From Octopus sinensis (Eukaryota), in NCBI RefSeq assembly GCF_006345805.1, contig NC_043004.1, positions 4,464,001 to 4,528,000 of the forward strand: a DNA stretch of 64,000 bases, written 5' to 3'. The notes beneath the pieces are model-generated. The model saw only the letters and a program-made list of their open reading frames with translations, had not been told where the DNA came from and searched no databases. Shown piece by piece: positions 9,401 through 63,798 of the stretch. Made by a program: the position numbers and the translations under genes. Every line of letters starts with the position of its first letter. Within the stretch, counting starts at the first letter, position 1.

Positions 9401-12400
9401 TCAGCCCCACTACATGATACTTAGGGCAAGTGTCTTGTATAGTCCTAGACAGACCAATGTCTAGTGCAGGGCTAGCCAACCTGAGGCCTGCGAGCTGCAG
9501 ACTTTTATCTTGCGGCCCGCTTGATACTTTCTTGAAATGGGTTTATTTAAACAAACATTTTAAAAATTTAATCAAAAATTGAAGATTGTAACGAAAAGTA
9601 AAAAAGAAAGATACTACAGGTGCAAGAGTGGCTGTGTGGTAAGTAGCTTGCTTACCAACCACATGGTTCTGGTTCATTCCCACTGTGCGGCACCTTGGGC
9701 CTTCTACTATAGCCTTGGGCAGACCAAAGCCTTGTGAGTGGATTTGGTAGACGGAAACTGGACGAAGCCCGTCGTATATATGTATGTATATATGTAAGTA
9801 AATAGAATATGTACCAGACTTGAAACTTAGTGTTTCAGCCAAAAGAGAGCAGCAGGATCCACAGGTCACTCAAGGAAAGGCCCAGAATCTGGTCAAGACC
9901 ACGTTGGAGACCAACTCCAAGGACTTCCTGACAGATGCTGCCTTCATAAGTGAGCAAGTGTTAGTGGACTTGTTCATCAAGTTTAACACAGCCAACCCCT
10001 CCAGTGCTGCAGTGGAGCGTTTGCTCTCTGTGGGTAAGGACATCTTGAGGGTCAAGAGGGTCTGGTGAAAAACTTTGACATGCTAATTTTCATGAAGAGC
10101 AACATGCATCTCATGAACAAAATGGAGAATGAGAAGAGAAAAAATTAAATTATGTAGATATTGTGTTTTTCAAATTTAAAAAAAAATTTTAGTTTAATAC
10201 TAATAGTGATTTATTTGAGTTTCTTTTTTTACCCTTTTCTGACTCTAAAAGCCTGTAAAAACCTAAAAAGGGGCCCAAACTATGAAATTAGCCTTTTTTA
10301 GGTCTTTTAAAAGTTAAAACTATAAAATCAGCATTTTAAACTCTAAGACAAAACAAAACAATAATTTTTGGGTTCTAAAGCTCTTAAAAACACCAAAAAA
10401 AGGCTGATTTTATAGTTTTGGCACTTTTTAAAGGTGTTTTTAGAGCAAAAACTCATTTTTTGTTTTTTTTCTATAATAAAAATTAATGATAACAGTTTAT
10501 CGATAACTTCCATTACATTTTTAAAGAATTAACAGTTATTGTAGTTAACTTTTTGGTTAATGGTTTAATGGTTAACAAAGTTAAATTTTCAATTAACAGT
10601 GCCCACCTTTGCTCTTAGATACATTATCTAAAGTGTCCTTCTTTTTTCAAACAATATGATGTGGCTTGAGAGTGAGAGATTTGTCCGCCATATCTACCAA
10701 GTCTAGTCATCACGTAGATGACCAAACTCACCCACTCACATCAGCTTGTCATTCAGTAAGTGATTCAGTTATCAGTGGCTCGTAAATAATACAAATAGAA
10801 GTAACTTTTTACTCACCTGTAAGTTAGCATATTTCTCAATATCTTGCTGTAAGTAAAAGAAACCACAGAATGAGATGAATTCAAGCAATGTCAAGAAGAT
10901 GGAACAAGTCTCTACTAATATTATAAGTTTAATACAAAAAAACATACATCAAAGTTAATAAATGATCAACAGTTATTTATCCAATGCAAATGTAGGAGAG
11001 ACAGCATCAGCAGCTAAACCGTTTATGATAAGAAAAAAATATAAATTGGCGACTAGACAGAGTGTAGAAATGGCTGTGTTGTTCAGAAATTCACATATGA
11101 AGTGAAATATTAAAAGACAGAAATGAAATTGAGTTGCAGAATCTAGTACAGAAACACGGTGCTACTCAATGGTGCTTAAAATATATATTTGTTTTACCAA
11201 CTGATTTATGCCTCAGCTTAACACAAGCACAAAACATATGTCTAATATATAGAAAGTATATTCAGATGTTGAATTTTGACAAACAAATGAGGAAAATGGA
11301 AAATAGAGAGAGAGGTGTGAGTACATACAGAATATGTGTGTATTACAGTTCTATATTTAAGAGATGAGGAATTATGTATATTATTTACATTTGACAGATA
11401 TTTGTCCTCATCTTGTTTGCTGTTAATATGTTTTGGCTGATATACCGTCCAGCCTTCATCAGGTGTCTTGGGGAAATTTCGAACCTGGTTTCTTATTCCT
11501 AACATATTTTTTGATGTAATTATTATTTTTATTATTAACGTTGTGTTAACAGCAAACAAGATGACAAATATCCATCAAATGTATATAATGTATGTGTGTA
11601 TTATTTATTTATTTTATATAGCATTTTGAGAACAACAACATTGTTGGGTACATGTTTCCAGTGGATCAATCACTGCTTCTCTGAATTTACAACATATCAC
11701 AAAAGTAACAAGGATTGGCAATGTAACTCTGGTAAAACAAAAGCGAAAAAGGCATTTTTGTTCAAAGGCATCAGTTTGTGTCTTCTTTTTGTAATGTTTG
11801 TATTTTTTGCTTTAAAATATGCTCATATATACCCATATACATTTATAATACACACACACACACACAAATCAAGAGAACTTAAATACTGACCATCATCAAT
11901 GCATCTTCTTGTAAAAGTTTTACAGAATGGTCACTAAATGTACTGGACATTTGGTGTTTCTTTTCTGAGGAATCCAACACTTGGAGTAGAAACTGTGATG
12001 GAGGTATGTATTCTTCTCCAGATTCTGATGAAAGTGGAAATAACAGATTAGGTTAGATAATATTTCAAGAGGAATAGATATTCTCACTTCAACCCTAAAT
12101 TTGTTTCAATTAATTTTGAAAATAATGAAGAATTTAGTAAACTAACCTTGTCATTGGTGTTTGGAACATAAATTAACATTGAAGGCTCTAATTTATACCA
12201 CTTAAAGAGTATTATCATACAACCATGAGGTGATCTGCTGGTATCAAAAAGATTAAGCAATACATTTCTCTATATGATATTTAAAGGGCACCTTTTTGGC
12301 TAGCAGTTGTTCTCATAGTGACAGCAGCTTCTATTTTGCAGTTAATCCTGTAGTTTCTTTTCAAAATCATTCTGGTAACTATGACCACTTCTACAAACAC

Positions 12401-12947
12401 AGTCTCTCACATGTTAACCACTCATCTTATTAAGACGAGTATGACACTGTTGCTCTCATATAGCAAATGCTAACAAAATTAATTATAAACTAGTACTGAA
12501 AACAGTAGAAAGAGTTCAAATCTTTGTTTGCATGATAAAAGAATTTACTATTAATGAGCCAAGAGGTGGGCTGTGACACTGCATCTCCTTGTCTATATCA
12601 ATTCTTTATTTGAAATTATAAACTGAAATTTAGAAAAAGAAAATGAGAAAAAAAAAATGAAGATTAGTCTCACCTGAGCAAAGGAATTTCATAATTGCTT
12701 CAGTACCTTGGGAACAAACCTCTGTAAAATGAAATAAAAAATAATGATAATAATGATAATAATCCTTTCTACTATAGGCACAAGACCTGAAATTTGGAGG
12801 GAGGAGACTAGTCAATTACATCAACCCCAGTGCATAACTGGCACTTATTTCATCGACCCTGAAAAGACGAAAGGTAAAGTCAACCCCCATGGAATACCAC
12901 TAAGCATTTTGCCTGGCGTGCTAATGATTCTACAAACTCACTGCCTC

Positions 12948-12984
<37 letters not shown>

Positions 12985-12994
12985 GTAATAGTAA

Positions 12995-13026
<32 letters not shown>

Positions 13027-16000
13027 ATAATAATAATAATAATAATAATAAACGCCCTGATGCAGTACCATGCAGTAGCTTTCATGGCTTCTGATCTTAA
13101 ATGATTGGAAGTGTTATCATGTACATTATTTTGTCTTGGTATAAAAGATGGGCTATAGCAAATACTCTGCTCAATACTACAGATTTGCTTGTCAGTTGTT
13201 TGACCATAACCAGTTGAGCATGTCCCTTAGTGGCTGACGATATGTGCATCTCTGATCTAGAGCAGAAGTAGTGGGGGAGGCATCATAGCCATGTGTTGAG
13301 AGGAATTCTTTGGGGTTTGAATAATTCACCTCTGGAAACATGCATGTTTTGTTCATCATCCTCAAACAACCCTTATTCAGGGACCTTTTGAATGGGATGG
13401 GCTACTCAACCTGAAGATAATTCTAACTGGGTCCCATCTGCAAGGTTATGCGCCATTAATCTTGATATGAGATAGCCATGTCGCACATATGTGGCTGTGA
13501 TGCATGTGCCTGGTGTACCCTTATCAGACGGGTAGTCATGATGGGTATACTGGGCTTCGTATAGTTTACTCACTTTCACTGCACTAATAATAATGAGAAG
13601 AAGAAGAAGAAGAAGAAGAAGAAGAAGAAGAAGAAGAAGAAGAAGAAGAAGAAGAAGAAAGAAGAAGAAGAAGAAGAAGAAGAAGAAGAAGAAGAAGAAG
13701 AAGAAGAAGAAGAAGAAGAAGAAGAAGAAGAAGAAGCTGGTGGTGGTGGTGATGGTGACAGTGATGATGATGATGATGATGATGATTTCCTAACGTTGGA
13801 TAAGGTAATGTATTTTCTGGGAACGAACAGTAAATGAAATCAATCTCAACATTTGGCTGGTTCTTATTTCATTGATCCTAAAAGGATGTAGTTGATGTCT
13901 TACCTGCAGGTGGATGGACCATATTTGCGGCATCCACAAGCAAGTTCTCTAAAGCACGCAATTTCCACAATTCAGTTGGCAGATTAGTTAATTGGTTGTT
14001 GGAGAGGTCAAGAGTTCGGAGGGACGATAAATTGCATAGACTGGTGGGGATTTCTTTTAATTTATTTCCTGCAATACATAAGAAAACATGCATTTGTTAG
14101 AACCATTGACCTAACCAGCAGAAAAACAATACAACATACAATATAATCAATACAGATGCTAACAACTAACTTAGCAATGAGCCTAAAGACTTAGCAATGA
14201 TAGAGACACTAATTAAATTTTTCACAAATCACACCCTGCCATCTTAAAAAAAAAATGTATCACATAAAAAAGAATATGTATACTCTTTACTCTTACTCTT
14301 TTACTTGTTTCAGTCATTTGACTGTGGCCATGCTGGAGCACCGCCTTTAGTCAAGCATATTGACCCCAGGACTTATTCTTTGTAAGCCTAGTACTTATTC
14401 TATCGGTCTCTTTTGCCAAACCGCTATGTTATGGGGATGTAAACACACCAGCATCGGTTGTCAAGCGATGTTGGGGGACAAACACACATATATATACATA
14501 GAAGGGGCTTCTTTCAGTTTCCATTTACCAAATCCACTCATAAGGCTTTGGTCGGCCCAAGGCTATAGTAGAAGACACTTGCCCAAGGTACCATGCAGTG
14601 GGACTGAACCGGGAACCATGTGGTCGGTAAGGAAGCTACTTACCACACAGCCACTCCTATGCCTATATATAACAATATTCCTTTAATATATTTGTGTTTT
14701 AATAATAAATCCATATATACAGCAGTAACATCTATATAAACATATAAAACAGAGTGTTTCATGCAACAACACACACACATGTGAGTATATTCAGAAGCAT
14801 ATTCATCATATCACACAATATACACATTCATAAAAATACATACACCCATGTTTGAGTACACATCTACAAACACACCACATACATCAACTCTTTACCGCAA
14901 ACATAGTTTTCTCTAAAACTCTTAATAAGTAATATTATGTTAAACTCTTTACAGCTGTTTCTGAGGTAGGTGTTCACTAGTTGTAGTTTTGCGCATTGTA
15001 TTTACATAAGCATAAGGTACATTGGTGCAAGTTACTGTATATGAACAACATAAATCAATGAAAATTTTTTAATCACAAAACAAAAATAAAAAAATTAATA
15101 ACAACCAACAAGAAAAATTACCTTTGAGATTTAAAGACTGTAAAAACTTTAAATTTCCAATGGACTCTGGGATTTTCTTCAACTTGTTGCCTTCTAAATT
15201 TAAAACCTAGAAGAGAGTGAGAAAGAAATATGATTTAGTAGATTATTTCAGAGCAAGACCAAATAAATAAATGAAATTCTATGCTCTATGGTGTGTTCAG
15301 GTCTGCCTCAAAGCAACAGAGTCAACCATTATACAGCAGAAGTTCTTTTTCAGATTTTCTTTCAAGTTAGATTTCTATATAATGCTACCATAGCTTTATG
15401 TATATGTAGCTTCAGGTGATGAGATGGCAGAATCTATAGCATGCTGGGAAAAAATGCTTAGTGGCATTTTGTCTGTATTTATGTTCTGATTTCAAATTCT
15501 GCTGAGGTTGACTTTGTCTTTCAACCTTTCAGGGTTGATAAAATAAGTACCAGTTGAACATTGGGGTCGATGTAATTGACTTAAGCCCTCCACTGCGCTT
15601 GCTGGCCTTGTGCCAAATTTTGAAGCTAATATGTATAAGTAGCTTAATTTCTGCCTTTGTAATTAAGCAACTAAGTAAATGAAAAAAATTGCTGATTATA
15701 TCAAGTTTCCCAATAATGAGGCCATTTTTCTAGCACTAACACACAAACCAATGCCAACTGCAGCACCTTCCAGACTGTGAAGTATGGTATTAGCCTCAGC
15801 ATTTGTATCTCACATTAAGACTAATTCATGAGCATATTTATTCTGCATCTGTTATTGTGAAGGCTGGATATCTGGAACTTCTTGATTTTGTGAGGGTAAA
15901 GCCATATTCCTTGTATTCTACTGAGCTGCAGAGGACAGTTAAGAGAATAAAAAGAAAAGTGCAAGGTTGTCTCTTTGTAAAACATCAATAAGTAGATAGT

Positions 16001-19000
16001 TAGAAAATTCTGTGGCCCCATCAGGTAAGTGCATTTTAGCTCAAGTGTTTTTGTAGAACATCACTACTGTATCTCCCCTTTCTCAGAGGATTCCGTAGGC
16101 TAGCCAAAATATTTTGCACTTTATCTCTGATTCTTTCAACTGAACACTAACCAAAAGCTTTGAAACTATGTTGGGGTGGCACCAACATGTGTACACTACA
16201 TTATCATCGTTTAACATCCGCTTTCCATGCTGGCATGGGTTGGATGGTTTGACTGATGACTGGTGAGCCAGAGGCTGCACCAGGCTCAATCTGATCTGGC
16301 AAAGTTTCTACAGCTTGATGCCCTTCCTAATGTCAACCACTCTGAGAGTGTAGTGGGTGCTTTTACATGTCACCGGCATGAGGGCCAGTCAGGCAGTTCT
16401 GACAACAACCATGCTCAAAAGGTGTTTTTTACATGCTACCTGCATGGGATCCAGTTCAGCGGCACTGGCAATGACCACGCTCAAATGTTGTCTTTCACAT
16501 GCCACCGACATATGTGCTGGTAAGGCAACGCTGGCAACGATCACACTTGAATGGTGCTTTCCATGTGCCACCAGCATGGGAGCCAATCTGTGGTGCTATT
16601 TATAATGTACCTAGGAAAGAAAACATCACCAAGGGAAGATACAATAAACTTCTTAAAGTAGCAAACATCATTAGAAAAAAACAGAGGTGACTTTGCTGAG
16701 CAGTGCTGGACACATAAGGAGGAGTTACTAAGTTGAGAACTTCCAATGGACACCTCAAAATAGTCATATATGCAATGACCAACTTGCAAAAACGTATGTC
16801 AATTAGTTTACATATGATACAGGATGTCACTGAGAAAAGCCACCATATGGCATGGAAGACAAGAGATGGGTGGAGGATCAGAAGCATGAGAACGCAAGCA
16901 AGCTCAACCTGATCCCAGTGATGATTATTGTGTGTTACATAATTTTTTAGTAAAAACTACTTGCTAAATCTATGCCACCAGATGATTTAACCTGGATATC
17001 AACTAAAGCATAAATAATGTAAATGAGAAATGGCATGCATGGTCCTCATTTCACTGGAGCTGTTGAAATCCAATTAGACTGAAATTGTCACCTGTATGTA
17101 TTTGGACTAACACCAAAATTATTTTGGAACAATGCTGAATATACTCTCTTACACCTGAATACCAAACTATTTGAGTAAACCTTCTATATGATTTAGTTTG
17201 TGTGCATGACACAAATTTCTCAAATGGCACAATGCCAATTTTGTAAACCGACCTTATGTGTTACAATAACACTATTATGATAAATACAGCTGCTCAAGAA
17301 GCTAGAAATACCAGCCAAATCTCTTTTTAATTATATCCTGCCATCTAATGAACACATTAGATAAAGAAGTACTAGATATCTTTAAAAGGATGGGATGGTC
17401 ACAGCTGAAATACTTTTTGATTATAGGTCTGTTCTGTTACAGTTCACCTGGGGCTTAACAGCAACATAAAGAATATTATAATGTAATCATTCATATTCCT
17501 TAAAAGACAACAGCAACATTTCTATTTACCTGTAAGCTGCGGACCTGGTCAATATTTTCTGGTAGATGTTTGATAGAATTATTGTGTGCATCAAGTACCT
17601 GGGAGTAAATGGCAAAGAAGATAAACAATTAGATACACATATGATATATATATATGAACAATTCAAACATTCAAATCAATGATGGAACCTTTACATGGTC
17701 ATTCAATCTGTTTGAAAAAGCAAAGAAATTCCCTCAAATCATATCCGGCTATCTATTTTTTTAAAAAAAGGAAGAAAACTGAGAACATTGTAGTGAAGGA
17801 TATATATACCCTTTTACTCTTTTACTTGTTTCAGTCATTGACTGTGGCCATACTGGAGCACCGCCTTTAGTCAAGCAAATCAACCCCAGAACTTATTCTT
17901 CGTAAGTCTAGTACTTATTCTATCAGTCTCTTTTGCCGAACCGCTAAGTTACGGGGACGTAAACACACCAGCATTGGTTGTCAAGCGATGTTGGAGGGAC
18001 AAACATAGATACACACATACATATATATACATATATACGACAGGCTTCTTTCAGTTTCTGCCTACCAAATCCACTCACAAGGCTTTGGTCAGCCCGAGGC
18101 TATAGTAGAAGACACTTGCCCGGAACCATGTGGTTGGTAAGCAAGCTACTTACCACACAGCCACTCCTGCGCCTATGTATAAATGTATAAAATAGATGGT
18201 TATTGTTAGAATATTTTTGACCATAGATCCACTTGATCAGGACTGACTCGGGGCTAAACAACAACAATTTAAACATAGCTCTTCACTTAAACATGCTTGG
18301 CTAAATCCAAAATTTCTGAGAGCTTGTCATGTTAGCGAAAGAAAGGGATGTACAATTTTTCCCTTCAAAATGCAGAGTAGTTCTTGTGGAATGTTAGAGA
18401 ATTAGTTACGAGTGAATGAGCATTAAGGAAATAGATCTCTCTATTTGTGTGTCAGGATGTTGACAGAAGTAAAGTGTTGAGTGAAAGATCACATGAGAGC
18501 CAGCATCACTACATAATGTTATGGATGATGGCAGGAGAGAATCATCATCATCATCATTTGATGTCTGCTTTCCCTGTTGGCATGGGTTGAACAGTTTGAC
18601 AAGATCTGGTGAGCCACAGGGCCATGTCAAGCTTCAATGAAAGCTCTGGCATGTTTTCTACAGTTGGATACCCTTCCCAATGTCGACCACCCTACAATGT
18701 GTATACTGGGTGCTTTGTTTTTATGCCACCAGCACAAGTGGGATCACTAAGTTGCAAAACAATAAAAGAATAGAAAAGGAAAAAAGATCTTATGATTTAA
18801 GTGAGGAAGGAGTATTAGAAATGGGGAAGGGGCTGAATGTCAGGTTTGAGAGACTAAAATATAATAGAGGGACACACAGAGGTATCTTGCTATAGAAGAG
18901 ATACATGGCTACCCCACATCATATAAGGCTGAGTAATGGTAAGTGTAGTAGAAGTGTGTTGGATATCTATCCAGTCATACTGCTTGCACAGATTCCCATG

Positions 19001-19674
19001 ACTCTCTGTTGTGATTCATCCAATTTTATTATTTGAATTGGGAGCTTGAGTCACAATGAGTCTTTCATTAGCTGATTACACAACCATGGATGCCACCCCT
19101 ATATATGCACTGCAGTTATTCTCTTGATAGAGCTTGGTCTTCTAGGATTCCTCTGCTCAGCATCAATATAAGAATGAATCAGTTTATCTCTTTCACTGCC
19201 TCTTCACAATCTACAGTGCTGCAGTCCCATGACTTCACTGTACCCTTGGCAGGATAGCTGAATGAGTGCTATGTTATACCAAAGGGCAGCCTATAAGTAT
19301 GTAGGACATGGTTGTGACTCTGGTGGGTATTTTCAAAGTACCCACGTTGGATATTAAATAGATGCAATGTGTAGGTGTGTTTTTTATTTTTATCGGATGG
19401 TGCACGTAAAAAGCACCATCCGATCGTGGCTGTTGCCAGCCTCGCCTGGCCCCCATGCCGGTGGCACATAAAAAGCACCATCCGATCGTGGCCGTTTGCC
19501 AGCCTTGTCTGGCACATAAAAAGCACCCACTACACTCACGGAGTGGTTGGCGTTAGGAAGGGCATCCAGCCGCAGAAACATTGCCAGATCAGACTGGGCC
19601 TAGTTGCTGCCTTCTGGCTTCCCAGACCCCAGTTGAACCGTCCAACCCATGCTAGCATGGAAAGCGGATGCTAA

Positions 19675-19706
<32 letters not shown>

Positions 19707-22700
19707 ATTTCCCTGAGCCCTATTTCAATGTGCTTCCTGTACATGTATTTGACAAGCTGTTTTACTCAAGGAATGGTGGAAATCCTTGACATTTCTAACC
19801 AACAATCAAAGTCATGTAACTTTCCATCACTTTGTGCCAAGTTATGGGAAGTTAGAGTATGAATACAGGGTCAGAAATAGGTGTCATGGAGTAAAGGAGA
19901 TACATGGTTATATCTTTTAATATTATTTTTAGTAGTAGTACAATACGGTTTTCTTAAGCTACAAACTATATCACAAGTATTGTACACTAAAAATTAATTG
20001 ATATGGATTATGAATTTCAAGAATTGCAAGTTATTAAAACTGGCGTTAGGAAGGGCATTGGCGTTAGGAAGGACATCCAGCCGTAGAAACACTGCCAGAT
20101 TTGACTGGGCCTGATGAAGCCTTCTGGCTTCACAGACCCCAGTAGAACCGTCCAACCCATGCTAGCATGGAAAACGGACGCTAAACGATGATGATGATGA
20201 TGAAAATGTGAAGGTATAGAAATTCAGTTGGATTCACAGAAACTCTAGGCCAAGAGCTACAGTACACATACACTCTCTCTCTCTCTCACCACATACATTA
20301 TAAACAAAAGATATGAAAGTATGACTTACCCGAATTTTTACCAAATCACTCATTCCACAATCACCAGCTTTTAGAGACGTTAACCAATTATCATGAAGCA
20401 ACAAAATCTGAAGTGATAAAAATATTCTTTTAGAAAGTAAAAACAAAAAAAAATCTAAATACAACTTGGGAAATGCATCAATACAATAAAGTTTTTTTTT
20501 TCATTCAATCTATAACTGACACTCAAAGCAAGATAATGAGGGAAGTTCAATGCATGAAATAGCAGCCAAGTCTCCTGCAAATTACACTCTACTATGCAAA
20601 AAAAAAGGGAGGACACATTGAACAGTAGTTTTGATAGCACTGTGGAATGGTCAGAGGCAGAATGTCTCTAATCATACATCAACTAAATCAGGGCTGACAA
20701 AAGATTAAAACAACAACTAAATCCAAATTGACATATTCTAATGATTACTTAAGCTCTGCCTCAGTATTGAACCTCTGGCTATTGAAGGAAAGTCGACCTT
20801 GCAGCTTTTTCTCAGATTTTGCTACATCATGTCATATGCTTCCCTAAGGGGAATGCCTTACCCTCCCAGGTCTTGTCGATTTTTTGCAACCTTATATTTT
20901 TCTAAGTAGCGGTGTTGGCCCTATGCAAACCCACTTTTGGTGGTCCATAGTGGTTTGGCCTACATTCTTTAACCTGTCCAGCATGGGAAGCCCTACCAAG
21001 ATCTTGCCCTCTGCTAGTATAGCTCTCATGAAGGACATGCCACCACAACCACAACAAAGATGTTCGCTGGGAATGTAAACATGATGACATTGGGGGTTTT
21101 TTTGTGGCTCAGATGGTATCTTGAGAAAGAGCAGGAATGACAACTTCCTGCACACTCACAAATACACAGACACACACACATATAAATAACAGGCTTCCAT
21201 ACAGTTTTTATCTATGAATCCCACTCACAAGGCATCAGTTGGTCCAAAGCTTTTGTAGAAGACAACAACCCAAAGTGCTATTCAGTCTAACTGAACATGA
21301 GTCTTAGACATTTATCTTCCACTTGTTTCAGTCATTGAACTATGGCCATGCTGGAGCATTGCCCTAAAGGTTTTAGTTCAGTAGTTCTCAACCACTTTTT
21401 TGCCGATAGACCCACTCCCCCCGATCCTTATTTTACTCAGCAGGACTTCCAAAATCATTTGATGTATATAGAAAAAAATCCGACTGTATTTTTATAATTA
21501 AATATAACTCATTTACTCTTTTATGTGTTTCAGTCATTTGACTGTGGCCATGCTGGAGCACTGCCTTGAAGGGTTTTAGTTGAACAAATCAACCACAGAA
21601 CTTATTTTTTAAGCCTAGTACTTATTCTTTCAGTCTCTTTTGCTGAACTGCTAAATTACGGGGACATAAACACACCAACACCAGTTGTCAAGCAGTTATA
21701 GGAGAGGGACAAATACAGACACATAATGACAGGCTTCTTTCAGTTTTCGTCTACCAAAAGCTTTGGTTGGCTCAAGGCTATAGTAGAAGGCACTTGCCTG
21801 AGGTACCACACAGTGGGACTGAACTTGGAACCATGTGGTTGGGAAGCAAGTTTCTTACCACACAGCCACGCCTGCACCTATTATTAGGAATTGCATAAAA
21901 AGTCATATATTGTAGAATTATTACCAATTTATTGCACATAAATTTTAACAACAACATCATATGTGGACCTTGATTGAGAATCACTACACTCCCAGTACTT
22001 ATTTGAAGTTTGGCACTTATTCTATCAGTCTCTTTTGCTGAACTGCTAAGTTACAGGGACATAAAAGGAAACCAGTTATTAAGTGATGATGGAGAATAAA
22101 CAAACAGACACACACACACACACATATATATATGATGAGCTTCCACATAGTTTCCATCAGCCAAAATCACTTGCTAGGCATTGGTTGATCCAGTGCTATA
22201 GTAGAAGACACTAGCCCGTGGTGCTGCACAGAAGGGCTGAACCCAAAATTATATAGTGGCAAAGCAAGCGTCTTAACCACACAGCCATGCCTGTACCTAT
22301 ATTAAAAGGGTTGAGAAAGGACAGTAAAACGGACACATTGGACAATGTGTCCTAGATACACATAGCCTAAAAATTCTACCTGTTTCATATTCAAACCAAC
22401 CAGATCCATGTCATTCTAAAAATAAACAATCACACTGTGGAAATCACAAAGCTATGAGACAATGCATGTGTCTAACACACGTGGGCATGTCTACAAAGTC
22501 AGAAAACAGCACAGCTCCCATGACTCAGAGACACGTTTTCACATTCAGAGTTGCTGAAGCATGGAACAAACTACCTGCATCAGTTGTCAGTTGCCCAGAC
22601 ACTGCATCCTCTAAAATCTCCAAGCTTCCTGAAATTCACTCATGCTACACTTGATATCTCCACTCTATATGCATACACACGTGTATATCATGACTCATAC

Positions 22701-22994
22701 TCTGTTCACTTTCCTGATTTTTGTATGTAATTCTATGTACTGTACATCTACCTTTGATGAGTGTAGCGCACCTGAGCACTATATTGTTTTATTTGTTTCA
22801 GTCATTTGACTGTGGCCATGCTGGTGTACTGCCTTTAGTCGAGCAAATTGACCCCAGGACTTATTCTTTGTAAGCCTAGTACCTATTCTATTGGTTTCTC
22901 TTGCTGAACCACTAAGTGACAGGGACATAAGCACACCAGCATCAGTTGTCAAGCGATGTTGGGGGTACAAACACAGATACACAAACATATACAT

Positions 22995-23044
<50 letters not shown>

Positions 23045-26000
23045 GACGGGCTTCTTTCAGTTTCCGTCTACCAAATCCACTCACAAGGCTTTGGTCAGCC
23101 CGAGGCTATAGTAGAAGACACTTGCCCAAGGTGCCGCGCAGTGGGACTGAACCCGGAACCATGTGGTTGGTAAGCAAGCTACTTACCACACAGCCACTCC
23201 TGCGCCTATACACAGTAATTTCATTATTATATAATTAATTAAAAAGAATAGTAATAAATAAGTATTACGTTTGACAGAGTAATCTGAATGCTGAAGGCCT
23301 AGTCATAGGTCAGCTGAAAGCAGGGCTGATCTGAGCTAAACAGCAATAGCAAATATAGTAACAACTTTACTCAATATTTCTTTAAGCTGATCAAATCATG
23401 TCTTACCTCTTTGTTCAGGACTTTACAGAGAGAGAACACATTGGAAGGGATCTGGAAATAGACATTATAAGAATCAGAATGGTGTTTTATTATTATTATA
23501 ATTATTATCATTGCTAATTTTTTTATCATTTACACTAGGCAGCAGGCCCGAAATTCTTGGGAAGAAGGCCAGTCGATTAGATCGACCCCAGTATGAAACT
23601 GGTACTTAATTTATCGATCGTGAAAGGAATGAAAAGCAAAGTTGGATGGTGAGGAGAAGGAGAAAGAAGGGGAAAGGGGGAAGAGGGGAGAAAGAAGTGG
23701 AGGAAGAAGGGGAGAAAGAAGAGGAGGAAGAGTGGAGGGGGTTGAAAAAGAGGGGACAAAGAAGAAAAAGAGGAGAGGATGAAAAGGAGGGGACAAAACA
23801 GAAGAGGAGGAGATGAAAAAGAAGAAGGGGGAACATAGAAGAGGGGAGAAAGAAGGAGGGGAACGAAGAAGACTAGGTAGGGATGTAGAAGAGGACAAAG
23901 AAAAGGAGGAGATATAGAAGAGGAGGAGGGAATGAAGAAAAGAAGGAAGGAGAAAGAGGGGAGGCAAAAGAGGAGACGAAGAGGAGGGAATTAAAAAGAT
24001 AAGGAAGGAGAAAGAGGAGGAGGAGAAGTAACCATTGTTGCTGTCACATTTTTTCTATCATCATTACTGTTATCCCTATTGTCACTACCAACATATTTGC
24101 ACATAATCTTCATCATCATCATAACTATACTCATCACCATTATCTTCAAAGTCATAGTTACCACTGCCACCACCGCCACTGCCACCACCATCACCATCAT
24201 CACTGTCCTTATTAATATCACCCATCATCAGATAATGTTTATTTCTGTTCACATTGATTTTTTTTTTTTATGCTACTGAATTCCTGCTAGTATTAATAGT
24301 CACCATAGCAACCAACTGTAACATGAAATGTCATTATAACAGCCTAGGCCACTGCAACAAAAACAACAACAGTACAAACTTTTTGCCTGTAAACTCAAAG
24401 TGACATTAATAACTGGACAATTGTCAGTAATGAAGTTATCATCATCATCACTATTTCAGTGGTGCCAGATAATGTGTTTACTATATTCATCAGTTCACTT
24501 ATTATTATTTTCCCAACATCTGACACCTCTGTATGCCTTAAGAAATATTAGAACATTGCCTTACACATTTTTACATTATTGGTTAATATTGTTGTGTAGA
24601 CCCACTTGAAATCATCAGTGGTTTTCAGTTGGTGCCTCATGGTGCATTAGTGTGCCACAAGGGGTATATAGGTATAATTTAGATTTTTAAAAACATCATT
24701 TAAGGCTTTGGAAAAATCTGTACTTGAACGTCTTGAAAAATATAATATTCATAATTTTGTTACATGCAAGTATCTTTTATCTTTTACTTGTTTCAGTCAT
24801 TAAACTGTGGCCATGGTGGGTAGTTATTGCCTCCGTGAGGCCCAACATTCCTTTTGATTGTTGGGCCTCATGGAGGCAATAGCCAAGACCTTTGGCATTA
24901 TGTCGTGCTTGAGAAGAAGACCCATGAAGCCAAGCAAAATCGCAGTCATGGCAGATACCAGTGTCATGCAAATTGGTACGTAAACACACCCATTACACTC
25001 TCGGAAATCCATGCCAAATCAGACTGGAGACTGGTGCAGCTTTCCAGTGTACCAGCCCAGTCAAACCGTCCAACCCATGCCAGCATGGACAACAGATGTT
25101 GGGCAAAAGCCTCATGTTATTATCATTATCATATCATCATCATCATTTAACATCCGTTTTCCATGATAGCATGGGTTGGATGGTTTGATCGGGATCTGGG
25201 AAGCTAGGAGGCTGCACCAGGCTCCAGTCTGATCTGGCAGTGTTTCTACAGCTGGATGCCCTTCCTAATGCCAAGCACTCTGAGAGTGTAGTAGGTGCTT
25301 TTTATGTGCCAACGGCCACGGAAGTCACTCAAGGCGGCGCTGGCATATATATATATATATATATACGGCAGACTTCTTTCAGTTTCCCTCTCTATCAAAT
25401 CCACTCCAAGGCTATACTAGAAGACACTTGCCCAAGCTGCCATGCGGTGGGACTGAACCCAGAACCATGTGGTTGGAAAGAAAGCTTCTTAACCTCACAG
25501 TCACACCTGTGCCTATAATTAACAAAATAAAGATAAGCGATAGTTTTGAACATCTTTTCTAAATTTTGAATTTTAAAATAGTTTACTATAGGAAAAGTAT
25601 CAATAGTTTTTGTTTGGTCTAAGGTATGTCATGTAGTCCAAAAAAAAAAAAAGTTGATGGAAAATGATTCATATCAAGTAAATTTAGAGCACAAAGGTAA
25701 CTGATCAGATAAATTGCTTTCTTCTGGCAGCAGATCTTAGTTTGTACAGCTACATGCGGTGATTTATCATATTGGAGATATGTGTGTGACAGTTTGAGCA
25801 TTTTCCTTTCTCGCTGTCAGTTATTTACTGGAGCAGAACAGTGGTTATTTTAGCAGGCAAAGTATTTTATGGAATTCAATGTGTTTCGACATAAATAGTA
25901 GCTTGTCATGGTACAGATTGTATCAAAGACAACAGTTTCAATGCTTGGTGCTGTTCCTATTCTTATGAATCATCATTATCATTTATCATCTGTTTTCCAT

Positions 26001-27616: not shown

Positions 27617-28067
27617 ACTCTTTCACAGCAACTGCGTAAAAGACATGTAAAAAATAAATACACTAAAATAACATTGAGATACACTAAACTAATTACTCAA
27701 TGTAAATGATTGGCTTAAAAGAATGCCTTTGGTTAAAAAAAAAACCCAAAAGACAACAAAACAATTAATGTATCTTGGGAACAGGATTTCTTTCATTTCT
27801 TTTAGTTGTTTCAGTCGTTGGACTGTGGCCATGCTGGAGCACCACCTTGAATAGTTTTGTCAAAAAAAAAAAAAGCCTGATACTTATGCTATCAGTCACA
27901 TTTGCTGAACAGCTAAATTATAGGGATATAAATAAGCCAACAGCAAGTGTCAAGTGGTGGAGCAGTGAGAGGACAAACACACACATGGACATCTATCTAT
28001 CTCTATATATATTATATATAACAAAGTAAAGTTGTAAGGTACCGCACAAGTGGGAATATATATGCAA

Positions 28068-28338
28068 GAAGGTTTGAAAATGCAATTTTAAAGATGTTTA
28101 TTGACTTGACCGGTTTCAATTTTTTAGAAAAAGATCGTCAAAAGTAAAATGTAAAGCTTTGTATGATCTTTGTTGTGTTAAGTACTGGTTATCACAAAAG
28201 TATCAAAATACGGTTATACATTCTTTGATAATAATAATAAAATACAAAGCTTTACATTTTACTTTTGACAATCTTTTTCTCAAAAAGTGAAACCAATCAA
28301 GTCAATAAACATCTTTAAAATTGAATTTTCAAACCTTC
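28068..28338. repeat. Inverted repeat (arms 28068-28164 / 28242-28338) with degenerate hammerhead-like motifs (family B)
   Basis: Arms are reverse-complementary; minus arm reads ACTT-TTGACGA-T-CTTTTT..AAAAA-TT-GAAACCGGTC-AAGT. Confidence 0.6.
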
Positions 28339-29538: not shown

Positions 29539-29584
29539 AACACAACGTTTCGGCTGATATACTCTCCAGCCTTCATCAGGTGTC
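29539..29584 (-). ncRNA. Minimal type-I hammerhead ribozyme motif
   Basis: GACAC CUGAUGA A GGCUG(GAGAGUAUAU)CAGCC GAAAC GUU GUGUU: stem I GACAC/GUGUU, 5-bp stem II, palindromic AACGUU stem III. Confidence 0.8.
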
Positions 29585-36892: not shown

Positions 36893-36918
36893 ATAATAAT
36901 AATAATAATAATAATAAT

Positions 36919-37255: not shown

Positions 37256-37287
37256 ATATAATAATATCAATAACAATAATAATAATG

Positions 37288-37319
<32 letters not shown>

Positions 37320-44931: not shown

Positions 44932-44990
<59 letters not shown>

Positions 44991-44993
<3 letters not shown>

Positions 44994-46046
44994 TAACAAG
45001 GATGTCATGGTATTAGTGTATTACGGCCGTTTCAGGCGACTCCATTTAATCGATGAATGCAAGCATTAAATCAATTTGAAATACACTGCCTTCCTCGGTG
45101 CATAAGACCATATAGGTTTTCAAAATACAAGATACTCCTCTTTTACTCGTTTCAGTCATTTGACTGCGGCCATGCTGGAACACCGCCTTTAGTCGAGCAA
45201 ATCGACCCCGGGATTTATTCTTTGTAAGCCCAGTACTTATTCTATAGGTCTCTTTTGCCGAACCGCTAAGTGACGGGGACGTAAACACACCAGCATCGGT
45301 TGTCAAGCAATGCTAGAGGGACAAACACAGACACACAAACATATACACACACACTTATATCTATATACATATATACGACAGGCTTCTTTCAGTTTCTGTC
45401 TACCAAATCCACTCACAAGGCATTGGTCGGCCCGGGGCTATAGCAGAAGACACTTGCTCAAGATGCCACGCAGTGGGACTGAACCCGGAAACATGTGGTT
45501 GGTTAGCAAGCTACTTACCACACAGCCACTCCTGCGCCTATAACTCCGTTATAATTTTTTAACAAATTTTTCATCAGAACTAGAGACTAAAAGAATTACA
45601 TGCTTATTGCTATTATTGTAGTAGAACAAACTTAAGGAGAAAATACCTAAAGCCTACTATAATTTGTAGTAGCAGAAGAGATTGACAAAGTGGAGGGTCA
45701 TGAGATGATAATATAGCTACATTTATCTATCTCGTTATCACCATCGAAAGATCTAAAGCAGCTACTATTCTATGTCCACTAAGAATTAAAAACCACTGGG
45801 AATCTACAGTTAGGTTCTAGCTGCTGATGATAAATTGATTAATGTCAGATACACTTCCCTACCCCTAATTTATTTGCTGAAATATTATGATGATGTATCC
45901 TGTATGTTGAAAACTTTTATGGTCTTATGCTTCCGAGGAAGGGGAAGGCGGTGTATTTCAAACTGATGTAATGCTTCCATTCATCAATTAAACGGAGCCG
46001 CCTGAAACAGCCGTAAGGCACTTGCACCTTGACATCCTTGTTACTT
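44991..46046. mobile_element. Inverted-repeat element (arms 44991-45129 / 45901-46046) with hammerhead-like motifs (family D); SINE family 1 inserted at 45133-45540
   Basis: Arms are reverse-complementary; each contains CCGAGGA..AGGC..GCCT GAAAC [G/A]GCC GTA. Confidence 0.65.
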
Positions 46047-46211
46047 ATTTGCTCCTTATTCACCTTTTTGAGTGGTGTGGATAATACTGGACTGACTTGG
46101 TGCTTCAACCTAAGTACCTAATATATATATATATATATATATATAAAACTTTTTTTGTAATGAAATAAAAAACCAAGGCTGTGTAGATTTTAGAACATTT
46201 ATAAATAGAAG

Positions 46212-46259
46212 GTCTTACAGCTGTTTCCAGGATATTTATTATATCCCTTCATCGGAGAC
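46212..46259 (-). ncRNA. Minimal hammerhead-like motif (family E, C at core position 4)
   Basis: GUCU CCGAUGA A GGGAUAU(AAUAA)AUAUCCU G GAAAC AGCU GUA AGAC; stem I GUCU/AGAC, palindromic ACAGCUGU. Confidence 0.65.
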
Positions 46260-46397
46260 GGTGTGAGAAGATGGTTCAGTAATAGTTAATTTAGATAAGA
46301 TACGAAATAGAGAGTGAGGTGGACGAATGAAAATATATGTAAGATATGCAGGGATATTGTATTTGTAGATCCATTATTTAGTCAGAAATGCCACAAT

Positions 46398-46486
<89 letters not shown>

Positions 46487-56515: not shown

Positions 56516-58362
56516 AACATTGCAATCCTTCTGCATAATTACATCCCTGTGAAAGTTGCTACCACTTCATGACACATAGTAATTATATATAAGTAAATCA
56601 TGATTGAAAAGATGTGATCAATCCTGATCAAGAGAACTCTATGAAGACTAGGACATTGCCCTCATTCAATAACTAATGAAAAGAGAATGCAATAAATTCA
56701 TTTTATTTTAGCAAATGACCCAGAACTTCCTTTAGGTGAATGCTTTGTTTACACTTTTAGTTTTTTTCTTCCCTTTTTTACCTCAGTAGCACAGCAAAAA
56801 AAAAAAAGCCATAAATAGTAAATAAATAAATAGAACAAATAAAAGAACACTTCTTTATAGCAAGATGGACTCATAAGGTAGAAAAAAAAAAACTGTACAG
56901 AAAATCATCAATATCAATTAACGATGTATTTGAAACCTCTCAGGCCAGGCAAAACCGGACACCAATGCAAAACCTTTTAAGACAAATTAGTATGTTTGGC
57001 CTTGTTGAAGGAAATGTACAGTAACAATATCACTGCATTAAAAGTTAATGTATATGACAAGCGACAGTGTGAGAAGATAAAGATTGGATGTGGTCAGTAG
57101 GTGGCGTAACCATTAGCAACTGGTAATGAATATGATAACAGTAATGGTCATGGGAAGGGGGGACGGGGCCTAGATCAACAAAGTAGGCGGCTTTATTACT
57201 TAAATTATCTGCTTAGTATCAGAAAAGGAGAACAGAACGCTAAAACCTAAAGAGCTTTCGTTAGCCATGTAATTTATTAACAAAGTACTTTTGCAACAAC
57301 AACAGGCATAAATGAATGAGCTACAAAGCAGCATCTGTGTAACAAATCATTTATTAAATAAGATCAGTAATCAACTGCACTAGAGTGCATTTGTGCATGC
57401 AGAATGCATAAACACCACTGTAAACAAGATAATAGCCAGTTTATATTTGTTTTGGCAACTTATGTAGACCATTCAGTCAAGTACATAAAGACTATTAATA
57501 GCTGCATGTTGAGCTAATTGTAGATGAACAGTAATAGCACCTGACATTGAAAGACAACATAAAAACAGTTTCAAGTTTTTATAAAGGGAGTGGATGCGAA
57601 CCAAATATAACACTAATCATAAGATCATCTCTTTGTGTAAAGCTGTCCCTGCTCCCATCCCGCCCCAGAATTTATAGTCTTGTAAGCTGCCTGGTGACCA
57701 CAATAGTGCTGGTAGCACAAAAACAAATAAAAAGCACCCAGGGTATGCTGTAAAGTGGTTGGTGTTAAGAAGGGCATACAGTCATAGAAATCATGCCAAA
57801 GCAGATACTGAGGCACAATGCAGTCCTTGGACCCACCCGATCCTGTCAAACTGTCTTACCTATGCCACCATGGAACATGGACGTTAAATGATGATGATGA
57901 TGATGATTAAAGGACTTCCAGTCTTGAGATATTTCATTTTTCTTTCTTTTAGACATAGAGTATCTAAGTGGCCTTATTCAATGCATCCTTTGTTATTTGA
58001 GATAGTGAGATGTGCTTTGGGGAACATTTCACTCTCGTTTCTTTGAGGTCAAGTGACAGCATTGATGGCTCACAATAGAGAAGGTTGTCACAAATAAATA
58101 TTTTCGCAAGAACCAAACTAAAAGGCAACCTGCACATTTTTCCTTCAAGGGATTCTATTAGTTTGCTCCTGAAGTAACAAAGCTCATTGATTTACACTAA
58201 AGAAGAAAAGACAACTCTTCTCACAATATACAAAAAGAATTAGTGTTATTTAGAATTTTGTCAAAATATATACCTGAATCTTTCACTTCTATATTTAAAA
58301 GATGAGGAATTATGTACATTATTTACATTCGATGGATATTTGTCCTCATCTTGTTTGTTGTT

Positions 58363-58408
58363 AACACAACGTTTCGGCTGATATACCCTCCAGCCTTCAT
58401 CAGGTGTC
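58363..58408 (-). ncRNA. Minimal type-I hammerhead ribozyme motif
   Basis: GACAC CUGAUGA A GGCUG(GAGGGUAUAU)CAGCC GAAAC GUU GUGUU. Confidence 0.8.
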
Positions 58409-58614
58409 TTGGGGAAATTTCAAACCTGAGTTCTCATTCCTAAGGTATTTTTCTATGTTGTTATTGTTGTTATTATTATTATTATTGTTCAGGTCACTGC
58501 TTGGAATCAAACTCAGAATCTTGGGATTAGTAGCCCACACTCTTAACCACTACGCCAAGATTCCAAGTGCGATTCCAAGCAGTGACCTGAACAATAACAA
58601 TGGTAATAATAATG

Positions 58615-58645
<31 letters not shown>

Positions 58646-58705
58646 CAACAACAACAACATCGAAAATACCTTAGGAATGAGAACCCAGGATCAAAATTTC
58701 CCCAA

Positions 58706-58751
58706 GACACCTGAAGAAGGCTGGAGAGTGTATCAGCCGAAACATTGTGTT
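58706..58751 (+). ncRNA. Hammerhead motif, stem III mutated
   Basis: GACAC CUGAAGA A GGCUG(GAGAGUGUAU)CAGCC GAAAC AUU GUGUU. Confidence 0.6.
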
Positions 58752-59169
58752 AACAATAAACAAGATGAGGACAAATATCCGTCAAATGTAAATAACGTAC
58801 CTGAATCTTTGTTGTCAATAAGAAACAAACATTCTTTATTAGGCTGACCCAGTGTTCTTTCTATGACAGACCAGTAAATTGGTTCACTCATTTTCAAAGG
58901 GTTAAGTAAAGCTGGCACTCCAACAGTTATCTCAAGTGTTCCAGTTGATGTGATCAACAGAACAACCTGTTCATGAAATTCAAGTGCAAGTGGCAGAGCA
59001 CTCCACAGACATGTGTTTCCTCAACATACTTCTGAGAGAGATTCAGTGTGACAAAATGCAACAAGGCTGGCCTTTTGAAATACAGGTACAATTTATTTTT
59101 GCCAGCTGAGTGGACTGGAGCTCAAGTACACAAAATATGAGGATGATGATGACGATGTAAGTCAAAATA

Positions 59170-62627: not shown

Positions 62628-62688
<61 letters not shown>

Positions 62689-62862
62689 ACATATCATCAT
62701 CATCATCATCGTCGTTTAACGTCCGTTCTCCATGCTAGCATGGGTATATATGTATATGTGTGTGTGTACATATATATATGTGTGTGTGTATGTATATATC
62801 ATCAGTAAATCATAAATCAAAAAAAGAAGCACACTCTAAGTTATAAAGCAGTAGAGTATATA

Positions 62863-63104
62863 TAGATAAAGATAGATATGGCCAGTCTATGGGGTTAACT
62901 AGTGTTTCACGTCCAAAAAATGCTTAGCTTTAAAGCATTTCTTCAGACCCTAAACCCTATGGCCTCACTAGATAATTTTGTAGGGAGACCACTTACTATA
63001 GAGGCCATAGGGTTTAGGGTCTGAAGAAACACTGTAAAGCTAAGTGCTTTATGGATGTGAAACCCAGGGTAACCCCATAGACCAGCCATATCCATCTTTA
63101 TCTA
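62863..63104. repeat. Inverted repeat (arms 62863-62966 / 63001-63104) with hammerhead motifs (family C)
   Basis: Arms are reverse-complementary around a 34-nt spacer. Confidence 0.8.
63017..63075 (+). ncRNA. Type-I hammerhead ribozyme motif (family C)
   Basis: GGGU CUGAAGA AACACUGUAAAGC(UAAGU)GCUUUAUGGAUGU GAAA CCCAGGG UA ACCC; stem I GGGU/ACCC, near-palindromic stem III, GUA cleavage triplet; mirror copy 62892-62950(-). Confidence 0.65.
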
Positions 63105-63664
63105 CACAAACACACACACACACATCATCATTCTTATGTTCATACTTTCCATGTTAGCATGGTTTAAATGAGACTTAGCGGGGGGGGGGGCAGTATACTA
63201 CAGCTGGATGATCTTCTGGTTACGAAACCTTATTAAAAAAAAAGAAAAAAGTAAGAGTTGGTGAGAGGAAGATTATTTATATTTTTATTCCACTTGTTTT
63301 CACAGAAAATAAAAAGCAATGAAAGCATGAAGCCGTTGAATGTACTATCATGAAGCCAACATGAACAAACACACAACTGCTGATTATGTCAATGTACGTT
63401 AATGTGGAACAACCTCCCCCCCACACACACACACACACATATACCAAATGCAGGAATATAATTGTTATTTTCAGTTTTATACAACATATGTACTTTCTCT
63501 GCAAGCTAAATGTCACTAATATGTAAGCTGATTGGCCTGTTATGCAATCTTATTGTGCATTTTTTTTTTTTTTTTGCAGATAACCAAAAGGAGTGAGCCT
63601 GTCAGCAAGAGGCTATAATAGAAGAGACCTGACCAAAGTACTATGCTGTGGGAAAAATACATAT

Positions 63665-63798
63665 ATTTATTATTCTTAAACAAGAATATTATTGACAATG
63701 ACTTTGAAGGTTCAGCTAGTTAGGCTACTGTCAGACAATGGCCTGAATGGCTGAAACTTCAAGGCCACTCTCAATATTCTTGTTTAAGAATAATAAAT
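63665..63798. repeat. Palindrome with degenerate hammerhead-like centre
   Basis: atttattattcttaaacaagaatatt / aatattcttgtttaagaataataaat arms; centre ..tgtcagacaatggcctgaatggctgaaacttc.. Confidence 0.65.

What the first reader, a model, noticed from the sequence alone, without database searches (positions are those of the whole stretch)
11346..63798. About five to six unrelated hammerhead families in 64 kb, mostly in inverted-repeat pairs
Seen: families A (11425-11468, 29539/29852, 58363/58706), B (28104/28261), C (62892/63017), D (45017/45928), E (46212) and possibly F (63665-63798) share no obvious sequence beyond the catalytic core. Yet their best-preserved copies have a self-complementary stem III (AACGUU, ACCGGU, ACCCAGGGU, ACGGCCGU, ACAGCUGU) and a short stem I. 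Established: palindromic stem III is typical of PLE-associated minimal hammerheads acting as dimers. Inference: this genome may hold a very large, under-annotated population of PLE-derived ribozyme elements.
Basis: partly seen in the sequence, partly recalled or inferred. Interest (0 to 1): 0.7.

Follow-up and report, generated by a model that had tools for sequence, protein, structure and literature searches.

The report
Octopus Penelope hammerhead stubs, one tRNA-headed
Most of these small ribozyme motifs in octopus DNA are likely ordinary decayed ends of Penelope-type jumping genes, but the commonest family is a 285-base non-coding element with a tRNA-like head that inserts as a folded-back pair, so it is likely a SINE-like parasite of Penelope elements rather than of LINEs.

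Summary
The window is Octopus DNA, in and upstream of LRSAM1. Hammerhead motifs exceed chance: 4 perfect-core hits against 0.01 per shuffle. Only families A, C and E pass a descriptor. B is supported by majority letters in public contigs (a U3-A8 core); D is unverified; F is cut inside the core. Each inverted pair looks like one insertion, not two copies. All three A loci have an exact 13-nt target duplication and a one-sided 26-31-nt tail, and a contig from another run shows the empty site of A2. This is the published Penelope-like (PLE) architecture. Sequence-diverse minimal hammerheads on opposite strands were reported in 2014, and PLEs are already annotated at 6.8% of O. vulgaris (these insertions are 5.0% of the window). 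The arms lie on opposite strands, so they cannot be each other's dimer partner. The head moved inside the insertion, and rough estimates give about 10^5 copies. It is likely a pol III SINE mobilised by a PLE. No autonomous partner, transcript or cleavage was shown.

The parts
29458..29951 (.). Family A insertion A2: long arm on - (29458 to about 29744, about 285 nt, probably full length) joined head-to-head to a short arm on + (about 29743-29951) that lacks the tail
   Evidence: empty site in one contig of run X10 (table 8, record 13)
29445..29457 (+). Left copy of the exact 13-nt target-site duplication of A2 (right copy 29952-29964)
29670..29744 (-). tRNA-like head of A2: A box 29736-29726, 34-nt gap, B box 29691-29682; followed by an (AAT)n run (about 29632-29668)
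   Evidence: box consensus recalled; no ARAGORN or Rfam tRNA hit
29539..29584 (-). Minimal type-I hammerhead, perfect core, stem I 5 bp, unpaired A after A9, stem II 6 bp, stem III ACGU with no loop; predicted cut after 29544
29852..29897 (+). Hammerhead of the short A2 arm, perfect core, one stem II change (29868; the majority letter in contigs restores the pair)
58284..58797 (.). Family A insertion A3: long arm on - (58284-58557, head A box at 58557, hammerhead 58363-58408 intact), short arm on + (58555-58797, starts 5' of the B box, hammerhead 58706-58751 with stem III broken); exact 13-nt duplication 58271-58283 / 58798-58810
11346..11590 (.). Family A insertion A1, in an LRSAM1 intron: long arm on - (11346-11536, cut in the (AAT)n run, hammerhead broken by G12>A and a 3-nt deletion), short arm on + (11537-11590, starts at the stem III palindrome); exact 13-nt duplication 11333-11345 / 11591-11603
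28025..28338 (.). Family B insertion: long arm on - (28241 to about 28030 or further left, end not fixed), short arm on + (28242-28338); U3-A8-type hammerhead remnants at 28104-28145 (-) and 28261-28302 (+); microsatellites on both sides, no duplication found
62856..63111 (.). Family C inverted pair; hammerhead 63017-63075 (+) has a perfect core and long stem II; 62892-62950 (-) is decayed; no duplication found
44989..46120 (.). Family D inverted pair between two (TA)n runs; the - arm is split by a SINE (about 45138-45541); the + arm runs on about 70 nt further; hammerhead-like at 45017-45103 (-) and 45928-46020 (+), unverified
46147..46398 (-). Family E single arm between microsatellites, tail-to-tail with D; hammerhead 46212-46259 with one core change (U4>C); ends approximate
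63660..63803 (.). Family F inverted pair whose arms meet at 63733, inside what would be the core; remnant only
41024..41308 (.).
3388..27616 (-). Host gene context: coding exons of E3 ligase LRSAM1 (first 433 residues; most exon matches 85-100% identical to the O. bimaculoides protein)

Best explanation
The motifs are hammerhead-shaped sequences in short folded-back insertions that likely come from several Penelope-like retroelement (PLE) families, and family A, which carries a tRNA-like A/B-box head inside the inserted unit, is likely an RNA-polymerase-III SINE copied by a PLE protein. Shown: the layout head, (AAT)n, hammerhead, 85-nt 3' end; the 13-nt duplications; the one-sided tail; the empty site. 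Inferred mechanism: (1) pol III transcribes a master copy of A from its internal boxes. (2) A PLE reverse transcriptase/GIY-YIG protein binds the region 3' of the hammerhead and nicks both strands of an AT-rich target 13 nt apart. (3) Both DNA ends prime copying of uncleaved RNA from two start sites about 30 nt apart, giving a long arm with the tail and a short arm without it. (4) The two cDNAs are joined head-to-head at a few shared bases. The ribozyme is carried along because it sits next to the protein-binding and priming region; it did not cut the RNAs that were inserted. B-G are 5'-truncated stubs made the same way, mostly decayed. A read-through transcript would bury the ribozyme in a long hairpin.
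For: Exact 13-nt duplications at 3 of 3 A loci, against 0.5% of 561 control flank pairs (561 kept of 1500 after dropping simple-sequence matches). One contig of run X10 passes from 29444 straight to 29952, which removes both arms, the head and one duplication copy. Tails of 26-31 nt on one side only, and 299-381 contigs in each of three runs have unrelated loose ends before 29461, a fixed 3' end. Inverted 5'-truncated copy plus 30-40-bp one-sided tail is the described PLE structure (PMC8557442 section 6). The long arm ends 84-86 nt past the predicted cut site; the anole PLE starts reverse transcription 111-118 nt into an ORF whose cut site is at nt 26, i.e. 85-92 nt by my subtraction, uses two start sites that bound the tail, extends both target strands and uses uncleaved RNA (PMC11167929). 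A's hammerhead has the published min-HHR traits. The head-(AAT)n-body junction is the same in 4 of 4 arms long enough to hold it. The A/B boxes are 34 nt apart, as in 11 other box pairs in the window (32-34 nt), with 0.3 hits expected per 64 kb. Five of six A arms lack a T4 run on the sense strand; the sixth has one 17 nt from the end.
Against: No autonomous PLE ORF was tied to any family. The head is seen at only two window loci; the read tool skipped 29628-29809, so its genome-wide frequency is unmeasured. ARAGORN, Rfam and phage-tRNA comparisons do not call the head a tRNA, though Rfam also misses a control SINE head. Absence of T4 is weak: 17% of 285-nt control windows also lack it. No target duplication was found for B, C, D or F. 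No compensatory change in 11 pairs across 5 A copies. Single-strand folding z-scores of the motifs are only -2.1 to +0.3. No transcript or cleavage was observed.
Confidence: 0.7

Rival explanations
1. All families, A included, are plain 5'-truncated PLE ends. The tRNA-like head is a passenger: one source PLE copy landed in the (AAT)n tail of an unrelated SINE, and read-through pol II transcripts of that locus were copied. The boxes do not drive transcription.
For: PLEs are described as biased to microsatellite targets. D and E sit in (TA)n. Only two loci show the head. A1 is cut within the (AAT)n run.
Against: This head occurs nowhere else in the window without the A body. Both long arms with a head stop within 8 nt of the A box, where a pol III start would lie, with no further upstream DNA. 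One X10 contig carries A-box letters between the A body and a short inverted arm at what seems another locus (table 5c; one row only).
Confidence: 0.2
2. The pairs are foldback or MITE-type DNA transposons, or LINE twin-priming products, and the hammerhead matches are incidental.
For: Long inverted arms and fixed-length duplications fit DNA transposons. B, D and F fail the descriptors. Rfam finds no hammerhead.
Against: The arms are unequal, the tail is on one side only, and the junction differs at each A locus. Both arms hold the 3' end, an inverted duplication rather than an inversion (twin-priming geometry recalled). Perfect cores exceed shuffles about 400-fold. B's majority letters move toward a published core variant.
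Confidence: 0.04
3. Family A is a non-LTR retrozyme or SM-alpha-type element that spreads through self-cleaved, circularised RNA from tandem copies.
For: Size near 300 nt, type-I hammerhead, pol III boxes as in the Schistosoma SINE-like elements (PMC6765202 passages). Retrozymes are proposed PLE parasites.
Against: No tandem hammerhead arrays among the 21 TRF rows. Copies are head-to-head, begin at or within the head and run through an intact cut site. A circular template would give permuted or head-to-tail copies (inference).
Confidence: 0.06

Closest known systems
Minimal hammerheads of metazoan Penelope-like elements (Cervera and De la Pena 2014, PMC4209133; parts 1-2 of 4 read)
   Same: Stem I 4-5 bp, larger stem II, unpaired base after A9, palindromic or absent stem III, many unrelated consensus families per genome, U3-A8 core variant, pairs on opposite strands 100-700 bp apart.
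   Different: No tRNA-like head is described in the parts read. Here no family could be tied to a PLE ORF. C, D and E have 3-4-bp palindromic stem III, like the paper's atypical variants.
Insertion unit of endonuclease-positive PLEs (Craig et al. 2021, PMC8557442, section 6 and passages; Frangieh et al. 2024, PMC11167929, parts 1-2 of 4)
   Same: Inverted 5'-truncated copy at the 5' end, one-sided tail, AT-rich or microsatellite targets, uncleaved template, similar distance from cut site to 3' end.
   Different: A is 285 nt and non-coding, its tail is 26-31 nt rather than 30-40, and it has a fixed 13-nt duplication, which the passages read do not mention.
SM-alpha / Sj-alpha SINE-like elements of Schistosoma (seen second-hand in PMC6765202 and PMC6155905 passages; Ferbeyre 1998 not read)
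   Same: Pol III promoter plus type-I hammerhead in a short non-autonomous retroelement.
   Different: SM-alpha has a canonical fast hammerhead and needs tandem copies because cleavage separates the promoter. A has a minimal PLE-type hammerhead, keeps head and ribozyme in one uncleaved unit, and inserts as a PLE-type fold-back.
Animal non-LTR retrozymes (PMC7229834 passages; bioRxiv 10.64898/2026.07.22.740005, part 1 of 5 and passages)
   Same: About 300 nt, type-I hammerhead, proposed non-autonomous derivatives of PLEs.
   Different: Defined by head-to-tail tandem units and circular RNA; 'tRNA' and 'promoter' occur 0 times in the 2026 preprint. A is not tandem here.
tRNA-derived SINEs of octopus (OK, OR1, OR2; Ohshima and Okada 1994, seen only as a reference listing) and the 1317 SINE families of O. 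vulgaris (PMC13282606 Table S1)
   Same: A/B-box head with the same spacing as other SINE heads in the window.
   Different: A ends in a hammerhead and PLE-type tail. I could not compare A with these libraries, so it may already be catalogued as a SINE or a Penelope family.

Membership tests
PLE minimal type-I hammerhead | Conserved core with stems I and II, above chance | tested here: met
   A, C, E. Not met by any window arm of B, D, F.
PLE minimal type-I hammerhead | Palindromic or absent stem III; unpaired base after A9 | tested here: met
   A, B-, D-, E palindromic; C+ has an unpaired centre.
PLE minimal type-I hammerhead | Core conserved across independent copies (families B-F) | tested here: inconclusive
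   Each of B-F is one insertion in the window. Only B was checked in contigs: majority letters at three shown sites fit a U3-A8 hammerhead.
PLE minimal type-I hammerhead | Self-cleavage as a dimer or with protein help | not testable with these tools
   Folding model does not favour the A dimer but lacks tertiary contacts.
Penelope-like element insertion | Inverted 5'-truncated arm plus one-sided tail in one insertion | tested here: met
   A at 3 of 3 loci; B by contig cover; D and G by sequence; not settled for C and F; E is a single arm.
Penelope-like element insertion | RT plus GIY-YIG ORF, or homology to an autonomous PLE pLTR | tested here: inconclusive
   No PLE domain in 147 of 209 candidate ORFs scanned, nor in six read-through frames beside D and E; no hit. 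No PLE DNA library was available.
tRNA-derived SINE | Internal A and B boxes at tRNA spacing at the 5' end | tested here: met
   both heads, gap 34, each box within one mismatch of a recalled consensus.
tRNA-derived SINE | Homology of the head to a named tRNA | tested here: inconclusive
   No hit; a control SINE head also gave no Rfam tRNA hit.
tRNA-derived SINE | 3' end shared with a partner LINE, or a simple-repeat/poly(A) tail | tested here: not met
   The 3' end is a fixed non-repetitive sequence behind a hammerhead; the (AAT)n run is internal. No LINE library was searched.
tRNA-derived SINE | Transcription by RNA polymerase III | not testable with these tools
   Only contigs were available.
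Non-LTR retrozyme | Head-to-tail tandem units each with a hammerhead | tested here: not met
   none in the window; the rest of the genome was not available.

The most novel reading that the evidence does not exclude
Family A is a true SINE of the Penelope class: a tRNA-derived pol III head fused to the hammerhead-and-tail end of a PLE, amplified to about 10^5 copies across several octopus species by PLE reverse transcriptase. It would extend SINE parasitism from LINEs to PLEs in a non-tandem form. Its fixed 13-nt duplication and two fixed 3' ends would record double-strand, two-site priming at a scale that allows the PLE integration mechanism and the ribozyme's role to be read from one genome.
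Probability: 0.5. Interest if true: 0.62.

Novelty: new variant of a known kind. Interest (0 to 1): 0.42.

Why it matters
The headline (many unrelated hammerheads in inverted pairs) is expected in a PLE-rich genome and was described in 2014. Family A matters more. SINEs are classically partners of LINEs; a pol III-headed element that inserts with PLE marks would be a clean case of a PLE-dependent SINE. A 285-nt natural substrate with about 10^5 insertions gives a minimal template for the in vitro PLE system and a large natural data set on nick spacing, priming sites and whether the hammerhead is under selection. The fold-backs would also make long double-stranded RNA when transcribed through, in an animal known for heavy A-to-I editing (recalled; not tested).

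Tried and rejected
Whole-genome scan: no assembly held. Rfam: no hammerhead or tRNA match in the window or sub-regions. Descriptor at <=2 core mismatches: not above shuffles; its extra hits at 45870, 43339 and 28790 were dropped as chance. Target duplications for B, C, D, F and inverted repeats at 10257, 25012, 44133: longest exact match 4-8 nt, background level. Autonomous partner: Pfam on 147 ORFs, on six read-through frames, a 50-residue frame of A against longer proteins (one hit, an O. sinensis host protein with an A piece at its start, no PLE domain), and a 68-residue frame upstream of D against 1.84 billion representatives (0 hits). tRNA source of the head in phage genomes: chance hits only. 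Expression: no RNA holder listed; run X16 is only guessed to be RNA, and its contigs cover A, B and SINEs but not unique flanks, which cannot show own transcription, ends or strand. Covariation within A: none, copies too alike. Idea that the arms of a pair are dimer partners: rejected, opposite strands, and 43-44 of 46 hammerhead bases pair with the other arm in a read-through fold. Lunse et al. 2017 was not held. Paper searches for a tRNA-headed PLE-dependent SINE, or for octopus hammerheads, found no such description; subscription journals, Repbase and Dfam were not searched, and bioRxiv supplements are closed.
Full report
Host. The window is 37% GC and rich in microsatellites and short repeats. 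An ORF at 13881-14096 (-) is 93% identical to Octopus bimaculoides LRSAM1, and tblastn places the first 433 residues of that protein on minus-strand exons from 27616 down to 3388. So the host is an Octopus species; which one was not established. No whole genome was held.

Observation. A type-I hammerhead descriptor found 4 perfect-core motifs (three of family A, one of C) against 0.01 per shuffle, and 5 with one core mismatch (adding E) against 0.22, in 100 shuffles. With two mismatches it found 9 against 3.5, which is not informative. A second descriptor allowing the U3-A8 core found only two A copies and E. Rfam has no hammerhead hit. Part-by-part annotation shows that B, D and F are hammerhead-like only when both arms are combined. 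B has a UUGAC(G/A)A core. D has C at position 4 in both arms and a long stem II insert. F's arms meet inside the core. For B, contigs from four public runs carry majority letters that give A8 opposite U3 (28136) and restore the closing pair of stem II (28119) (40 of 201 difference rows shown). U3-A8 is a published PLE variant. Pairwise alignment finds no clear kinship among families: 18 of 21 pairs lie within shuffles, three are borderline. The count is therefore three families shown by descriptor (A, C, E), one by population data (B), one doubtful (D) and one remnant (F).

The pairs are single insertions. At all three A loci the inverted pair is flanked by an exact 13-nt direct repeat; 0.5% of 561 control flank pairs reach 13 nt (561 kept of 1500 after dropping simple-sequence matches). 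On one side, 26-31 nt of element lie between the duplication and the inverted part; on the other side none do. In run X10, a relative about 5% diverged on unique DNA to judge by its listed differences, one 874-nt contig covers 29108-29444 and continues directly at 29952-30182. That is the empty site: 507 nt are missing, the 494-nt insertion plus one duplication copy. In each of three runs 299-381 contigs have unrelated loose ends before 29461, so the long arm has a fixed 3' end. For B, contig cover shows a long minus arm with extra sequence left of the inverted part and a short plus arm. D lies between two (TA)n runs, with a longer plus arm and a SINE inserted in its minus arm. A further pair at 41024-41308 has a one-sided 43-nt extension and a 13-nt duplication with two mismatches but no hammerhead. 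No duplication was found for B, C, D or F.

This is known PLE anatomy. Craig et al. 2021 describe an inverted 5'-truncated copy at the 5' end and a 30-40-bp tail at one end. Cervera and De la Pena 2014 report thousands of minimal hammerheads per genome, many unrelated consensus families, and pairs on opposite strands 100-700 bp apart. Frangieh et al. 2024 show that a lizard PLE protein cuts and extends both target strands, starts reverse transcription at two internal sites that bound the tail, and uses uncleaved RNA. One start region lies 85-92 nt past the ribozyme cut site by my subtraction; A's long arms end 84-86 nt past it and its short arms 48-59 nt. O. vulgaris is annotated with 190 Penelope-like families covering 6.83% of the genome. 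The insertions described here cover 3227 bp, 5.0% of the window. The density is thus what the annotation predicts.

Abundance. Summed contig depth on the A arms is 37,000-132,000 times the unique flank in runs X2 and X10, and on B 770-3,650 times. The tool warns that this is not a copy number. Scaling 3 loci per 64 kb to the 2.8-Gb O. vulgaris assembly gives about 130,000. Both rough figures point to about 10^5 copies of A. Five organism labels hold the stretch.

The head of family A. Read in the hammerhead's sense, A is a tRNA-like head, an (AAT)n run, about 45 nt of body, the hammerhead and 85 nt of 3' end. Both heads have A and B boxes 34 nt apart. Eleven other such box pairs in the window, in other short repeats, have gaps of 32-34 nt, and 0.3 are expected per 64 kb in 200 shuffles (box consensus recalled). 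Between the boxes lies a 7-base loop closed by GGG/CCC, as in an anticodon arm (seen in the sequence). This head is found only with the A body. The head-(AAT)n-body junction is the same in the four arms long enough to hold it, and the empty site shows that the head entered with the insertion. Five of six A arms have no run of four T on the sense strand, which is weak support because 17% of control windows also lack one. Against: only two loci show the head, the read tool skipped that stretch, and no tRNA finder recognises it, although Rfam also misses a control SINE head. One contig of run X10 has A-box letters between the A body and a short inverted arm (table 5c), a single-row hint of a further locus.

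Mechanism. Shown: layout, duplications, tail, empty site, fixed end. Inferred: pol III transcription from the head; binding by a PLE protein in trans; nicks 13 nt apart; priming from both DNA ends at two RNA sites about 30 nt apart; head-to-head joining of the two cDNAs at short shared sequences (junctions). The inserted RNAs were uncleaved, since the copies run through the cut site. The arms of a pair cannot form the dimer, because they lie on opposite strands; in a read-through fold 43-44 of 46 hammerhead bases of A pair with the other arm, and 40-50 of 45-59 for B and C. A trans dimer of A is not favoured by the nearest-neighbour model (-22.3 against 2 x -12.0 kcal/mol), which lacks tertiary contacts, so activity stays open. 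No autonomous partner was found.

Comparison and novelty. Pol III promoter plus hammerhead is known from Schistosoma SM-alpha, which is tandem and cleavage-dependent (passages). Retrozymes are proposed PLE parasites and have been called a possible kind of SINE; they are tandem, and no tandem hammerhead array occurs here. Nine paper searches found no description of a tRNA-headed element with PLE insertion marks, nor of octopus hammerheads beyond 235 Rfam hits in giant squid. Repbase, Dfam, Lunse 2017 and Ohshima and Okada 1994 were not seen, so A may be catalogued already. Earlier notes of this scan describe the same fold-back architecture in other genomes and one ribozyme-free tRNA-like unit with PLE-type ends; they are unchecked leads.

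What I read. PMC4209133 parts 1-2 of 4; PMC11167929 parts 1-2 of 4; PMC8557442 section 6 and passages; PMC13282606 part 1 of 3 and its whole supplement; bioRxiv 10.64898/2026.07.22.740005 part 1 of 5 and passages (supplements closed); passages only of PMC6765202, PMC7229834, PMC6155905, PMC8969392, PMC8967140, PMC6962438, PMC4758252 and PMC10886601.

Verdict. The finding as written is mostly real and mostly known. Family A, as a likely PLE-dependent SINE, is a new variant worth a genome-wide check. Interest 0.42.

Noticed in passing
P0111 (O. sinensis LOC115224785 isoform X2), residues 1-36, against window 29823-29927: A family A piece, hammerhead included and in sense, is annotated as the first 36 codons of a cysteine-rich membrane protein isoform in O. 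sinensis (91% identical). It suggests an A copy spliced in as a 5' exon.
   Followed up: partly
window 11422-11467 (-): The only A hammerhead known to lie in sense within the LRSAM1 pre-mRNA is the one that is broken (G12>A plus a 3-nt deletion at the cut site). One case only.
   Followed up: no
window 41024-41308: Seventh fold-back family (G) with tail and decayed 13-nt duplication but no hammerhead, probably truncated 3' of it.
   Followed up: partly
window 46120-46146: Families D and E end tail-to-tail at the same (TA)n run.
   Followed up: partly
window 63733 and 11537: Fold-back junctions fall inside the hammerhead: in the core for F, and at the stem III palindrome for the short arm of A1.
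   Followed up: no
window 28025-28338: Insertion B lies about 410-720 nt upstream of the LRSAM1 start codon region (27616).
   Followed up: no
window 36871-37404 (+), 50946-51368 (+), 8804-9031 (-): Transposon protein remnants: a stretch that looks by eye like the end of a restriction-like endonuclease LINE (recalled, no Pfam hit), a helix-turn-helix ORF, and a Mos1-type HTH_48 domain.
   Followed up: no
window 24800-25240, 33727-33801, 44133-44205, 61618-61666, 10236-10451: Other local inverted repeats without hammerhead motifs; several are made of SINE pieces joined back-to-back.
   Followed up: no
window 321-59671: Eleven other A/B-box heads mark at least three further SINE-like families.
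   Followed up: no
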